Both the position numbers and the translations under genes were made by a program. Below, one piece after another: positions 59,267 to 60,799 of a stretch of 64,000 nt of DNA (its first letter is position 1; each line of letters opens with the position of its first letter). Below the pieces are notes generated by a model. It was not told the origin of the DNA. It saw nothing but the letters and a program-made list of their open reading frames with translations, and made no database searches. The DNA comes from Schmidtea polychroa (lineage: Eukaryota): positions 1,364,001 to 1,428,000 of the forward strand of contig CM097885.1 in NCBI GenBank assembly GCA_044892525.1, given 5' to 3'.

Positions 59267-59946
59267 TGGTCTTAAGGATTTAATGTTATAAGGATTTAAT
59301 GTTATAAGAATATCAGATTACCTAATTCATAATGATCTAGGTCGCCTGATCACCTTAAGGTTTTGAAAGTTTTAAAAATAAAAAATTTTATGAAATAGTA
59401 AAATTGCTCTGAGAGGACAGTGGTTTTTTTTTTTTTTTTTTCACTGTCCTCTCAACAGTTTTTTTTTTGATCCGGATCATTTTTTTTTTATTCAACCTCT
59501 TTCGTTTATCAAATCTCTTCCAATATACAAGCTGGCCAGACTCATACATCAGAATCAATTCGATAATAGCAGCACACCTTATTATTCGCTTCTCGCTCGA
59601 ATACGATTTCATCGGCGTTTTAAGTGTGCTGCTCGAAAGTACAAATGAATTCGAAAGCGAATCCGAAAGAGGTCCGAAAACAACTGAGAAATAAATGTGC
59701 ACATTACCGGAATCGATCCGGGGGTGTTCGAAAGACAGGTGGCGATAATTACCGGTTCGCCACCATCACCCGTTTCAATATTTTTTTTTTCATATTTATG
59801 TTTAAAAAATAATTAATTAATAAAAAAATAAAATAAAATAAAATAAATAAAATAAAATATACAAGTACTTTATAAATATAAGATACCCACACTATTTTCA
59901 ATATTTTTTTCAAATTTTTAATATTATTTTATGTTGAAAAAAAACT

Positions 59947-60020
59947 AACCTCAGATGTGATTTGAACCACTATCCATTTGAACCACTGTGCCAGTCTAGC
60001 CCACTGCGCTATCTAGGATT
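59947..60020 (-). ncRNA. tRNA-like Pol III unit 1
   Basis: A box TAGCGCAGTGG, duplicated B box GGTTCAAAT, T-run terminator immediately downstream. Confidence 0.45.
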
Positions 60021-60265
60021 GAATTTTTGTCATTTTTTAGACTATAAATAATCGATTCAAGTTCTTTAACTCTTTCCTGTAATTGTTTCATTTTCTTCAA
60101 TCTTATATCAGCAACATCTACAGCCTTCATATAAAAATGTCGATACTTTTCATTATCTACCATCAACTCTTTGATGTATTCTAATGGTTCTTCTTCTCTT
60201 CTTTTCATTCTCTTATGTTTAACTTCATTCAATTCATTTCTCATTCTTTCTTTTAACTCATCCAT
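59996..60265 (-). CDS. Small charged coiled-coil protein
   Basis: AAAAATGG start context, 89 aa, heptad-like; probably belongs to family B. Confidence 0.5.
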   Translation of the reverse strand: MDELKERMRNELNEVKHKRMKRREEEPLEYIKELMVDNEKYRHFYMKAVDVADIRLKKMKQLQERVKELESIIYSLKNDKNSILDSAVG

Positions 60266-60427
60266 TTTTATAAATATTTTTTTTATTGGATATATTAATT
60301 TTTGGTAGTTAAAACGTTTTTGATTTTAAATTTCCAAGAGTTGCCGTTGACCAATCTCCTTAAAAATTTGTACAAGTACTAAATCGAGTATGCTGATCAA
60401 TATTTCGTTAAAAAATTTGAAAAAAAA

Positions 60428-60500
60428 TGACCAAAATGGGATTTGAACCCATTGGTATTGGCAATGCAGTCGAGTGCTATTACCACTAAGCTATTAGAGC
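60428..60500 (-). ncRNA. tRNA-like Pol III unit 2 (tRNA-Cys-like, degenerate)
   Basis: TAGCTTAGTGGTA A box/D-arm, GACTGCA, perfect T-arm ATGGG-TTCAAAT-CCCAT, T-run follows; anticodon and acceptor stems imperfect. Confidence 0.55.
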
Positions 60501-60669
60501 TATACTCAATATAAAATAAGTTGTTAATGTGTGACTATTTATTGATGAAATTAATAATTAATTATTCATTTTCTCGACAACTACCACTCAGATCCATCTG
60601 AAAATTTAAATATATACTAAAATCAGTACGCTGAATCAGATTCCGTTGAAAAAAAATATCGATAAAAAT

Positions 60670-60743
60670 TGACCAAAATCGAAAATTGAACCCGGTACTC
60701 CCGGTGATAAAATTGAAGCCTATTCCCACTCCGCTATAATGGC
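60670..60743 (-). ncRNA. tRNA-like Pol III unit 3
   Basis: A box TAGCGGAGTGG, B box GGTTCAATT, shares the TTTTGGTCA 3' end and downstream flank with unit 2. Confidence 0.45.
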
Positions 60744-60799
60744 TTACATAATATATTTAATTAATCCTATTTTGTGTGTGTAAATTTTAATATATAAAA

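What the first reader, a model, noticed from the sequence alone, without database searches (positions are those of the whole stretch)
59940..60750. Cluster of three tRNA-like Pol III units upstream of the family B capsid gene (VA-RNA analogues?)
Seen: three ~73-nt minus-strand units, each with A box, B box and a T-run terminator; units 2 and 3 lie in a diverged ~245-bp tandem repeat. Promoter boxes are conserved while anticodon arms are not. Known: adenovirus VA RNAs and gammaherpesvirus tRNA-like RNAs are Pol III transcripts of tRNA ancestry. Inference: viral small RNAs or TFIIIC-bound insulators in a Polinton-like virus.
Basis: partly seen in the sequence, partly recalled or inferred. Interest (0 to 1): 0.7.

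Follow-up and report, generated by a model that had tools for sequence, protein, structure and literature searches.

The report
tRNA-derived Pol III cassettes in a Maverick
A virus-like Maverick/Polinton element present in thousands of copies in this genome carries three decayed tRNA genes that keep only their RNA polymerase III promoter boxes and terminators, which suggests the element uses them as polymerase III docking sites rather than as tRNAs.

Summary
Three minus-strand units (u1 59937-60018, u2 60420-60500, u3 60664-60743) each have an A box, a B box 32-33 nt downstream and an oligo-T run: 3 pattern matches in the window against 0 in 100 shuffles. Only u2 reaches the Rfam tRNA threshold (33.8 bits, cut-off 29). 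ARAGORN calls none, stems are broken, and u1 and u3 fold no better than shuffles.

They are not SINE heads. All 42 sampled genomic loci lie in the same element. That element is a 15.2-kb Maverick/Polinton with protein-primed polymerase B, PLA2-integrase, A32 ATPase, double-jelly-roll capsid, 375-bp inverted ends and a 6-bp target duplication.

The genome holds 4,872 exact u2/u3-type matches and 1,634 u1-type matches (the latter include double counts). In other subfamilies u1 lies inside a ~1-kb terminal inverted repeat, at both ends and facing outward. u2 and u3 sit in a 243-bp tandem repeat present in 0, 2 or 4 copies.

Across 21 distinct copies of u1 the boxes are kept (1 of 21 sites polymorphic) while the rest of the unit is hypervariable (14 of 44).

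Best reading: tRNA-derived Pol III/TFIIIC recruitment cassettes. Neither transcription nor factor binding could be tested. A conserved, strongly structured ~380-nt block next to u1 is a better VA-RNA-like candidate than the units.

The parts
59021..59395 (.). Left terminal inverted repeat of the 15.2-kb Maverick/Polinton. The terminus reads AGTAGTG..., and the first 24 nt recur inverted at 59243-59266.
   Evidence: 59021-59395 matches 74203-73836 (window plus downstream loci) at 95.5%. The 6-bp duplication AGCATC flanks both ends. Termini of other copies align from the same AGTAGTG.
59396..59773 (-). Conserved, GC-richer, non-coding structured block between the terminus and u1. It includes an A16-loop hairpin at about 59400-59465.
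   Evidence: MFE -124.4 kcal/mol, z -7.4 on the minus strand, against -105.8 kcal/mol, z -4.6 on the plus strand. The consensus has 96 pairs, 2 of them with compensatory changes, and 99.6% of cells are paired. The block is 95-99% identical between subfamilies. Indels are not multiples of three.
59937..60018 (-). u1: a tRNA-derived unit. A box 60011-60001, B-like copy 59984-59976, B box 59968-59958, T8 59944-59937. It overlaps the last codons and the stop of the 89-aa ORF.
   Evidence: No Rfam tRNA hit at E<=10. Fold z +0.28. Boxes conserved among 21 distinct copies. Lies inside the ~1-kb TIR of other subfamilies.
59996..60265 (-). 89-aa ORF rich in charged residues, with no Pfam family, lying between u1 and u2.
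   Evidence: It is absent from one subfamily (where the TIR joins the capsid gene directly).
60307..60790 (-). Two diverged ~243-bp tandem repeat units, each holding one tRNA-like unit plus a shared downstream motif.
   Evidence: 77% mean column identity. Copy number is 0, 2 or 4 in other copies.
60420..60500 (-). u2: the most tRNA-like unit. A box 60493-60483, B box 60449-60439, T8 60427-60420. GCA sits at the anticodon position.
   Evidence: Rfam RF00005 33.8 bits, gathering score 29. Copies elsewhere score 20.5-32.4 bits. In the alignment the anticodon stem pairs at 2 of 5 positions. ARAGORN does not call it.
60664..60743 (-). u3: a decayed paralogue of u2. A box 60736-60726, B box 60692-60682, T5 60668-60664. 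Its 5' end lies 57 bp from the capsid gene's ATG, in divergent orientation.
   Evidence: No Rfam hit. Fold z +0.15.
60800..62088 (+). Double-jelly-roll major capsid protein gene, interrupted in this copy (ORFs 60800-61729 and 61777-62088).
   Evidence: Pfam PF21738, E 1.7e-17 and 8.9e-07. A stop-free frame of 433 aa is present in 5 of 8 distinct sampled copies.
62235..63467 (+). PLA2-like domain plus rve integrase gene, split into two ORFs in this copy.
   Evidence: PF08398 E 1e-07. In another sampled copy one 427-aa ORF holds both PF08398 and PF00665.
63470..64000 (-). A32-like packaging ATPase gene, which runs off the window. The element continues for 10.2 kb to its pPolB gene and right TIR.
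   Evidence: PF04665. A 1479-aa ORF with PF03175 lies in the downstream locus. Right terminus located.

Best explanation
The three units are former tRNA genes that have become an inherited, integral part of a Maverick/Polinton provirus family. They no longer encode usable tRNAs.

What has been kept is the DNA signal set of a type-2 RNA polymerase III gene: A box, B box at the normal spacing, and an oligo-T terminator like that of host tRNA genes. I therefore read them as TFIIIC/TFIIIB/Pol III recruitment cassettes.

One cassette (u1) sits at the inner edge of the terminal repeat and points outward. In many subfamilies it is present at both ends of the element. A variable tandem array (u2, u3) sits directly upstream of the capsid gene, in divergent orientation.

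Most likely mode of action (inferred, not shown): bound TFIIIC and Pol III keep the flanking chromatin open or bounded, in the manner of a tDNA-type barrier or enhancer-blocker. This would bracket the element's genes and shield the capsid-side promoter region. Each cassette would also produce a short (~75-85 nt) unstructured RNA as a by-product.

Shown: the anatomy, the linkage to the element, the copy number, the loss of tRNA features and the selective retention of the boxes. Inferred: factor binding, transcription and the chromatin effect.
For: 1. Promoter layout in all three units. There are 3 pattern matches in the window against 0 in 100 shuffles, with box spacing of 32-33 nt. Host tRNA-Lys and tRNA-Arg genes end in T7 or T6 runs 3-5 nt downstream. 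The units end in T8, T8 and T5+T8.

2. Not functional tRNAs. ARAGORN in the window and 0 in 55 loci. Only u2-type copies hit RF00005, at 20.5-33.8 bits. In the alignment the u2 anticodon stem pairs at 2 of 5 positions. Folding z-scores are +0.28, -2.47 and +0.15.

3. Selection falls on the boxes, not on the RNA. The sample is 21 distinct u1 copies found through u2/u3, so it is not ascertained on u1. Sites with a minor allele in at least 2 copies number 1 of 21 in the A box plus B box, and 14 of 44 in the other unit positions (nominal Fisher p 0.025). In the flanks the figure is 4 of 147 (p 3e-7 against the other unit positions). The one polymorphic box site is A/G at the position where the recalled consensus has R. 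The two acceptor halves vary without compensation.

4. The 16-nt piece that holds the B box is duplicated inside u1, and is present three times in one copy. This ruins a tRNA but adds a TFIIIC site. A deletion variant of u2 loses the 5' acceptor half but keeps an A box.

5. Placement. In other subfamilies u1 lies inside a ~1-kb TIR. Among 86 distinct u1 sites there are 14 outward-facing pairs 10-14 kb apart, against 2 inward-facing pairs. One element was checked at both ends: its distal end runs pPolB, then u1, then the block, then the terminus, and matches its own proximal end at 94-99%. One search shows the same layout in another distal end.

6. The u2/u3 array varies between 0, 2 and 4 units, as expected for a dosage-type cis element.

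7. The units are integral to the element. All 42 of 42 sampled loci carry the same flanks. The genome holds 4,872 and 1,634 exact matches, with 0 for the reversed-pattern controls.
Against: - No binding or transcription data could be obtained.
- The polymorphism contrast rests on one unit (u1) and on copies that share ancestry, so the p-values are nominal.
- u3 and its flanks are almost invariant among 11 distinct copies, so they say nothing either way.
- In the window's own element u1 is present at one end only, because its TIR is 375 bp.
- Some subfamilies lack u2/u3 altogether, so that array is dispensable.
- Retention of oligo-T terminators fits real transcription at least as well as a pure DNA role.
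- The u3 B box (GGTTCAATTTT) departs from the recalled consensus at its 3' end.
- Boxes are the most conserved parts of any tRNA gene. The box-only likeness of u1 to u2/u3 could therefore reflect separate captures of different tRNA genes rather than selection.
Confidence: 0.42

Rival explanations
1. Trans-acting viral small RNAs. The units are transcribed by Pol III, and the ~75-nt products themselves act, for example as decoys for tRNA-binding or RNA-sensing host factors or as precursors of small regulatory RNAs. This would be analogous to gammaherpesvirus tRNA-like RNAs or adenovirus VA RNAs.
For: All three units have the complete layout of a type-2 Pol III gene, including terminators like those of host tRNA genes. 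u2 still resembles a tRNA to the Rfam model. Conserved terminators suggest that a defined 3' end matters. Earlier unchecked notes of this scan describe a Pol III-type hairpin gene in the arm of a Polinton in another genome; this is a lead only.
Against: u1 and u3 fold no better than shuffled sequence. The non-box positions of u1 are the most variable sites of the whole region, and the acceptor halves change without compensation. This is the opposite of what a structure-dependent RNA shows. The u1 B box is duplicated inside the 'RNA'. No hairpin follows the units before the T-run. No Rfam family other than tRNA (u2) matches the units at E<=10.
Confidence: 0.2
2. Neutral relics. One or more host tRNA genes were captured by an ancestor of this Maverick lineage and are simply decaying. 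They hitch-hiked to thousands of copies because the element amplified.
For: Stems are broken and two of the three units fall below any tRNA threshold. Canonical tRNA genes are known in Polinton-like viruses and virophages (PMC12220804, passages read), so capture is plausible. u2/u3 are absent from some subfamilies. u3 shows no informative variation.
Against: Decay has spared the boxes: 1 of 21 box sites is polymorphic against 14 of 44 elsewhere in u1. After the u2/u3 duplication the A box stayed identical at 11 of 11 positions, while the stretch between the boxes became largely unalignable. The B-box piece was duplicated and the array was expanded. u1 is retained in TIRs of subfamilies whose polymerase genes are only ~70% identical.
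Confidence: 0.2
3. Upstream control elements for neighbouring genes of the element. u2/u3 would act as repeated enhancer or promoter modules of the divergent capsid gene, and u1 as an upstream element for the structured block in the terminal repeat. The tRNA ancestry would be incidental.
For: The 5' end of u3 lies 57 bp from the capsid ATG. In one subfamily u1 takes that place, about 75 bp upstream of the capsid gene. The 243-bp repeat also shares a conserved non-tRNA motif downstream of the T-run. The block starts 160-190 bp downstream of u1 on the same strand.
Against: In another subfamily the capsid gene is preceded by the 89-aa ORF with no unit nearby. Nothing here tests promoter activity. 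The conserved parts are exactly the Pol III boxes.
Confidence: 0.1
4. Heads of a dispersed host SINE, or SINE insertions into the element.
For: The units are tRNA-derived with A and B boxes, and have thousands of copies.
Against: All 42 of 42 sampled loci (10, 30, 12) carry the same Maverick flanks. The T-run follows the tRNA-like part directly, with no SINE body or tail. All of the first 100 listed matches of the general A-box/B-box pattern are of u2 or u3 type.
Confidence: 0.02
5. Working tRNA genes that adjust codon supply, as proposed for tRNAs of Polinton-like viruses.
For: u2 passes the Rfam tRNA gathering score and has GCA at the anticodon position.
Against: ARAGORN rejects all copies. 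In the alignment u2 has 2 mismatches in the acceptor stem, 1 in the D stem and 3 of 5 in the anticodon stem. u1 and u3 are not recognisable as tRNAs.
Confidence: 0.02

Closest known systems
tRNA genes carried by Polinton-like viruses, virophages and other mid-size linear dsDNA viruses (PMC12220804, passages read; PMC8502044, figure legend read)
   Same: tRNA-type genes sit inside small virus-like elements of the same broad realm. They were presumably captured from hosts.
   Different: Those are reported as canonical tRNAs detected by Rfam or ARAGORN, and are interpreted as codon compensation. Here ARAGORN finds none, stems are broken, only the promoter boxes are kept, one unit lies in the terminal repeat at both ends, and the others form a tandem array. 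The supplementary tables of PMC12220804, which list its ncRNA hits, were not seen.
Murid gammaherpesvirus 68 tRNA-like RNAs (vtRNAs / TMERs); recalled, not from a call
   Same: Clustered tRNA-derived Pol III units near one end of a DNA virus genome. They are not used for decoding.
   Different: As recalled, TMERs keep a cloverleaf-like fold and run on into pre-miRNA hairpins before the terminator. Here the T-run follows each unit directly, and u1 and u3 have no stable fold.
Adenovirus VA RNA I/II (Rfam RF00102; features recalled)
   Same: An internal A box and B box with oligo-T termination, in a virus related to Polintons through its capsid, protease and polymerase module.
   Different: As recalled, VA RNAs are ~160 nt and highly structured. 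The units are 73-74 nt and mostly unstructured, and there is no VA match at E<=10. The neighbouring 378-nt block is structured but has only imperfect box-like motifs and no Rfam match.
tDNA and B-box (ETC-type) chromatin boundaries, and SINE-borne TFIIIC sites; recalled from the yeast and mammalian literature
   Same: The selected feature appears to be the TFIIIC-binding boxes rather than the RNA. B boxes are multiplied, and the units are placed at the edges of a gene block.
   Different: No binding or barrier data exist here. As far as my three searches show, such elements have not been described as built-in parts of a Maverick/Polinton.
tRNA-derived SINEs
   Same: A tRNA-derived Pol III promoter head spread to thousands of genomic copies.
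   Different: Spread happens by carriage inside a 15-kb DNA element, not by retroposition. There is no SINE body, tail or target duplication of its own.

Membership tests
tRNA gene (Rfam RF00005) | Covariance-model score at or above the gathering score (29 bits) | tested here: inconclusive
   u2 scores 33.8 bits. Copies of u2 elsewhere score 20.5-32.4 bits. u1 and u3 give no match at E<=10. One of three units passes.
tRNA gene (Rfam RF00005) | Cloverleaf with four paired stems and an intact anticodon arm | tested here: not met
   In the alignment u2 has mismatches in the acceptor stem (2), the D stem (1) and the anticodon stem (3 of 5). ARAGORN in the window and 0 in 55 loci. MFE folds of u1 and u3 are no better than shuffles.
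Type-2 (tRNA-type) Pol III transcription unit | Internal A box and B box at about 30-60 nt spacing (consensus recalled: TRGCNNAGTGG and GGTTCGANNCC) | tested here: met
   All three units match, with spacing of 32-33 nt, against 0 matches in 100 shuffles (alignment). The u3 B box departs from the consensus at its last positions.
Type-2 (tRNA-type) Pol III transcription unit | Oligo-T terminator shortly after the gene, as in host Pol III genes | tested here: met
   T8, T8 and T5+T8 start 0-1 nt after the units. Host tRNA-Lys and tRNA-Arg genes have T7 or T6 runs 3-5 nt downstream.
Type-2 (tRNA-type) Pol III transcription unit | Transcription by Pol III; TFIIIC/TFIIIB occupancy | not testable with these tools
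   No run on record as RNA holds the stretch. No ChIP data were available.
Adenovirus VA RNA (RF00102) | A ~160-nt RNA with a long, stable, imperfect hairpin (terminal stem, central domain, apical stem) | tested here: not met
   The units are 73-74 nt, with z-scores of +0.28, -2.47 and +0.15. There is no RF00102 match at E<=10 in 59000-61500.
Gammaherpesvirus TMER (tRNA-like unit plus miRNA hairpins) | A tRNA-like unit continuing into pre-miRNA stem-loops before the terminator | tested here: not met
   The T-run follows each unit directly. The feature itself is recalled, not from a call.
tRNA-derived SINE | Dispersed copies with unrelated flanks, their own body and tail, and their own target duplications | tested here: not met
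   All 42 of 42 sampled loci share the Maverick flanks.
Maverick/Polinton (the carrier element) | Protein-primed family B DNA polymerase and rve integrase | tested here: met
   PF03175 in a 1479-aa ORF, and PF00665 with PF08398 in a 427-aa ORF of another copy. The window's own integrase gene is split.
Maverick/Polinton (the carrier element) | Double-jelly-roll capsid protein and A32/FtsK-type packaging ATPase | tested here: met
   PF21738 and PF04665.
Maverick/Polinton (the carrier element) | Terminal inverted repeats starting 5'-AG and a 6-bp target-site duplication (features recalled from the original Polinton description) | tested here: met
   375-bp TIRs at 95.5% identity, terminus AGTAGTG..., duplication AGCATC.
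Maverick/Polinton (the carrier element) | Adenain-like cysteine protease | tested here: inconclusive
   No PF00770 hit among the ORFs of this element at E<=0.01. Several of its ORFs have no family. The other Polinton in the window has a hit (22252-22608).

The most novel reading that the evidence does not exclude
This Maverick lineage has a built-in Pol III module in its terminal repeats. The module is an outward-facing tRNA-derived promoter cassette followed by a ~380-nt structured RNA.

The structured block starts with its own A-like (TGGCGAACCGG) and B-like (GGATCGATTCC) boxes 34 nt apart. It is 95-99% conserved between subfamilies whose polymerase genes have drifted to ~70% identity.

If so, the block would be the true functional counterpart of adenovirus VA RNA in a Polinton. 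The cassettes, copied to well over 2,000 sites, would also have seeded the host genome with thousands of TFIIIC/Pol III sites.
Probability: 0.2. Interest if true: 0.8.

Novelty: new variant of a known kind. Interest (0 to 1): 0.55.

Why it matters
Small Pol III genes are a classic tool of large DNA viruses such as adenoviruses and herpesviruses. Canonical tRNA genes are known in Polinton-like viruses.

Here a Maverick/Polinton, the presumed ancestor-like relative of adenoviruses, carries tRNA-derived cassettes in which only the polymerase III signals are maintained. One cassette lies in the terminal repeats at both ends of many copies.

If these cassettes bind TFIIIC or Pol III, the finding would matter in three ways:
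- It would show how an integrating DNA virus insulates itself or keeps itself open in host chromatin.
- It would give a second route, besides SINEs, by which thousands of Pol III/TFIIIC sites are spread through an animal-sized genome.
- Together with the structured terminal block, it would provide a candidate for a VA-RNA-like function outside adenoviruses.

All three points are directly testable with small-RNA sequencing and Pol III/TFIIIC ChIP in this organism.

Tried and rejected
1. RNA evidence. No RNA holder is listed: none of the runs that hold the stretch is on record as RNA. I laid four runs, all of them contigs; two are only guessed to be RNA and two are of unknown kind. Contig depth cannot rank parts of a stretch and the run kinds are unknown, so I draw nothing from it on expression, start sites or strand. 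The loose ends seen at 59480, 59972 and 60013 are explained by variant copies and A-run length.

2. Ends of the repeat at 59349 and 62204, suggested, are rejected. 62204 is a 24-bp indel and 59349 is a switch between terminal-sequence variants. Flanks beyond both points are shared among copies.

3. I first read the 2.5-kb inverted duplication 51058-53557 / 61926-64392 as long TIRs. This is rejected. Homology continues past 64392 in another copy, and the real TIR and target duplication are at 59021 and 74203. The left segment is a truncated second copy.

4. Coding potential of the structured block is rejected. The 74-aa ATG ORF (59388-59612) is not supported, because subfamilies differ by indels that are not multiples of three.

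5. Host tRNA ancestor of the units. The genome search with RF00005 returned only Lys-UUU and Arg-UCG arrays, so the ancestor could not be identified. GCA at the anticodon position of u2 hints at tRNA-Cys only.

6. Integration next to host tRNA genes. ARAGORN finds none in the flanks of the sampled copies.

7. Further units elsewhere. A profile of the units finds none besides u1-u3 in the rest of the window, in the rest of this element up to position 74000 (window plus L041), or in the two flank loci of another copy (L072, L073). The other Polinton family in the window has none.

8. Relatives of the capsid protein in viral contigs: none.

9. Earlier notes of this scan by place and by capsid sequence: nothing.

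10. Literature. Three full-text searches found no paper describing tRNA-like Pol III units in Maverick/Polinton terminal repeats. Only the search listings, plus passages of two papers, were seen.

11. Variation in u3 is too low to test box conservation.
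Full report
**1. What is there**

On the minus strand of 59937-60743 lie three ~74-nt units. Each has an A box (TAGCnnAGTGG), a B box (GGTTCAAnT...) 32-33 nt further on, and an oligo-T run that starts 0-1 nt after the unit.
- u1: A box 60011-60001, B box 59968-59958, T8 59944-59937.
- u2: A box 60493-60483, B box 60449-60439, T8 60427-60420.
- u3: A box 60736-60726, B box 60692-60682, T5 60668-60664 and T8 60656-60649.

A combined box pattern matches exactly these three places in the 64-kb window, and none in 100 dinucleotide shuffles. The B-box core alone gives 6 matches against 2.2 expected.

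In the alignment of the three units the conserved columns are the A box, the B-box core and the T-run. u2 and u3 are 243 bp apart, inside two diverged tandem repeat units that align at 77% mean column identity. TRF did not report the repeat.

**2. How tRNA-like are they?**

- Rfam's tRNA model hits only u2 (33.8 bits, gathering score 29), with GCA at the anticodon position. In that alignment the acceptor stem has 2 mismatches, the D stem 1, and the anticodon stem 3 of 5.
- u1 and u3 give no tRNA match even at E<=10. The same holds in seven related loci, where only u2-type copies score (20.5-32.4 bits).
- ARAGORN finds nothing in the window, nor in 55 related loci totalling 185 kb.
- As single RNAs, u1 and u3 fold no better than shuffles (z +0.28 and +0.15). 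u2 is modest (z -2.47).
- u1 contains an internal 16-nt duplication that doubles the B-box piece. One copy elsewhere has it three times.

These are tRNA-derived sequences, not tRNA genes.

**3. The carrier**

The units belong to a Maverick/Polinton, not to a polymerase-less Polinton-like virus. Its parts, left to right, are:
- left terminus at 59021 (AGTAGTG...);
- a 375-bp terminal inverted repeat, matching the right end at 95.5%;
- a 6-bp target duplication, AGCATC;
- the structured block, u1, an 89-aa ORF, u2 and u3, all on the minus strand;
- the double-jelly-roll capsid gene (PF21738), divergent from them;
- a PLA2-like plus rve integrase gene;
- an A32-type ATPase;
- eight ORFs without a Pfam family above its cut-off;
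- a 1479-aa protein-primed polymerase B gene.

The whole element spans 15,183 bp, from window position 59021 to 10.2 kb beyond the window's end. It sits inside the integrase gene of a different, older Polinton-like module: 53567-59013 is 77.7% identical to 25642-31152.

In this copy the capsid and integrase genes are interrupted. Of 8 distinct sampled copies of the capsid region, 5 have a stop-free frame of 433 aa.

**4. Linkage and copy number**

They are not.
- A general A-box/B-box pattern has 4,872 exact matches in the 781-Mb genome, against 0 for the reversed control. All of the first 100 listed are of u2 or u3 type, mostly in pairs 235-244 bp apart.
- A u1 pattern has 1,634 matches, including double counts (100 listed matches correspond to 86 distinct sites), against 0 for the control.
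- All 42 loci fetched around such matches carry the same Maverick flanks. They comprise 10 from a BLAST search with u2, 30 taken in genome order for u2/u3, and 12 taken in genome order for u1. Overlapping loci reduce these to fewer distinct places.
- Several copies are truncated or carry insertions, as expected for an old and abundant family.

**5. Where the units sit in the family**

(a) In other subfamilies u1 is part of the terminal inverted repeat.
- Among the 86 listed u1 sites there are 14 neighbouring pairs that face outward, 10.3-13.9 kb apart. Only 2 pairs at that distance face inward.
- One distal end reads: polymerase gene (~70% identical to the window's), then u1, then the block, then the terminus.
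- For one element I checked both ends. The distal ~1 kb matches its own proximal end at 94-99% and contains u1 and the block.
- In the window's own copy the repeat is only 375 bp, so u1 is present at the capsid end alone. A profile of the units finds no fourth unit in the window or in the fetched part of the element up to position 74000.

(b) The u2/u3 array is variable.
- It is absent in some subfamilies. There the 89-aa ORF, or the terminal repeat with u1, abuts the capsid gene.
- It has two units in most copies.
- It has four units in one locus.

**6. What is conserved**

The cleanest test uses copies of u1 that were found through u2/u3, so they were not selected for their u1 sequence. There are 21 distinct sequences. 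Counting sites with a minor allele in at least two copies:
- A box plus B box: 1 of 21. The one site is A/G, where the recalled consensus has R.
- Extra B-like copy: 1 of 9.
- Other positions of the unit: 14 of 44.
- Flanks: 4 of 147.

Nominal Fisher tests give 0.025 for boxes against the rest of the unit, and 3e-7 for the rest of the unit against the flanks. The copies share ancestry, so these are not true probabilities.

The two acceptor halves occur in several combinations without compensation. A first comparison on nine sequences pointed the same way, but most of those had been found with a pattern that required the boxes, so I do not count it.

Between the paralogues u2 and u3 the A box is identical at 11 of 11 positions and the B-box core is kept, while the 26 nt between the D arm and the T arm are largely different. 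u3 itself is almost invariant among 11 distinct copies and is uninformative.

Host tRNA-Lys and tRNA-Arg genes end in T7 or T6 runs 3-5 nt downstream, the same style as the units.

**7. Interpretation**

The features that make a tRNA or a structured RNA are lost or free to vary. The features that recruit TFIIIC, TFIIIB and Pol III are kept, multiplied (B-box duplication, tandem array) and placed at the edges of the element's gene block.

I therefore favour tRNA-derived Pol III/TFIIIC recruitment cassettes whose selected property lies at the DNA level. The likely role is a tDNA-type boundary or chromatin-opening function for an integrating virus, with short transcripts as a by-product (confidence 0.42).

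The rivals are:
- trans-acting small RNAs (0.2): weakened by the lack of structure and by hypervariability outside the boxes;
- neutral relics of captured tRNA genes (0.2): weakened by the box-specific retention, but not excluded, because boxes are the slowest-decaying parts of any tRNA gene and the sample is small;
- upstream control modules for the capsid gene or the terminal block (0.1);
- SINE heads and working tRNAs (0.02 each): both tested and not met.

Binding, transcription and any chromatin effect are inferred, not shown.

**8. The neighbouring block**

Between the terminus and u1, on the same strand, lies a GC-richer non-coding block (59396-59773).
- It is the most conserved part of the terminal region: 95-99% identity between subfamilies, including one whose polymerase gene is ~70% identical.
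- It folds to -124.4 kcal/mol (z -7.4) on the minus strand, against -105.8 kcal/mol (z -4.6) on the plus strand.
- The consensus structure has 96 pairs with 99.6% of cells paired, against 42-46% when the partners are slid.
- Two pairs show compensatory changes, four more show one-sided changes that keep pairing, and there are 13 G-U pairs that would be mismatches on the other strand.
- The structure was derived from the same eight sequences, and 81 of 500 shuffles reach two compensatory pairs. The covariation is therefore suggestive only.
- Its 5' end carries an A-like and a B-like motif 34 nt apart, and a T4 run about 95 nt in. This is a lead, not a finding.
- No Rfam family matches it.

If any part of this region is a VA-RNA counterpart, the block is a better candidate than the units. 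A single-stranded DNA role in protein-primed replication cannot be excluded.

**9. Comparison with what is known**

- Canonical tRNA genes in Polinton-like viruses and virophages are on record: 558 Rfam tRNA hits in a collection of about 8,300 genomes, read as codon compensation (PMC12220804, passages).
- tRNA genes are drawn in some mid-size linear dsDNA viruses, and PLA2-like virion genes are typical of one adintovirus class (PMC8502044, passages).
- Three full-text searches found nothing on decayed tRNA-like Pol III units in Maverick/Polinton terminal repeats. I saw only the search listings and the passages named.
- Two earlier unchecked notes of this scan describe a Pol III-type 131-nt hairpin just inside the end of a Polinton in another genome. 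I did not test them. They are a lead that such modules may recur.
- The likenesses to gammaherpesvirus tRNA-like RNAs, adenovirus VA RNAs and tDNA insulators rest on recalled features. The defining structural features of the first two were tested here and are not met.

**10. Verdict**

The units are integral, amplified parts of a Maverick/Polinton. The tRNA function is lost while the Pol III signals are kept.

The function is unproven. This is a new variant of a known kind (virus-borne tRNA-type Pol III genes), of moderate-to-good interest, and directly testable by small-RNA sequencing and Pol III/TFIIIC ChIP.

Noticed in passing
window 59396-59773 (minus strand): A conserved ~380-nt non-coding block in the terminal region of the Maverick. 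It has a very stable minus-strand fold (z -7.4), a few compensatory changes, an A16-loop hairpin, and A-like/B-like box motifs at its 5' end. It is more conserved between subfamilies than the polymerase gene.
   Followed up: partly
window 59021-59044 and 59243-59266; mirrored at the right end: The first 24 nt of the terminus recur inverted about 220 bp inside each terminal repeat, giving a sub-terminal fold-back. Other terminal-sequence variants of the family show the same arrangement.
   Followed up: partly
window 62235-63467; a 427-aa ORF in another copy: A parvovirus-type PLA2-like domain (PF08398) and an rve integrase core (PF00665) lie in one reading frame in an uninterrupted copy. This is a PLA2-integrase fusion rather than a separate virion PLA2 protein.
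   Followed up: no
window 27725-28180 (+) and 56470-56931 (-): Two copies of a TATA-binding-protein-like gene (PF00352, E 7.7e-16 and 2.6e-14) lie inside the other Polinton family of the window, next to its ATPase and integrase genes.
   Followed up: no
window 2616-14224: An 11.6-kb near-perfect palindrome (98.7% inverted duplication) with mirrored ORFs, including DUF4371-domain proteins.
   Followed up: no
window 51058-53557: A truncated, inverted second copy of the capsid-end/PLA2-integrase/ATPase segment of the same Maverick family, 98% identical to 61926-64392. It abuts an LTR retrotransposon (RVT_1 and integrase domains at about 37-51 kb).
   Followed up: partly
window 58600-58760: A long ATT microsatellite inside the integrase ORF of the older Polinton-like module, read as a run of isoleucines.
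   Followed up: no
G000 contigs C4, C140, C333, C474 (loci L042-L071): Host tRNA-Lys(UUU) and tRNA-Arg(UCG) genes stand in long tandem arrays. Neighbouring genes are mostly 424 bp apart in the array on C4, and many are 278 bp apart in the array on C474.
   Followed up: no
window 60550-60563 (equivalent position in other copies): Several copies of the element break off at the junction between the two 243-bp repeat units (four loci). This suggests recombination or insertion at that point.
   Followed up: no
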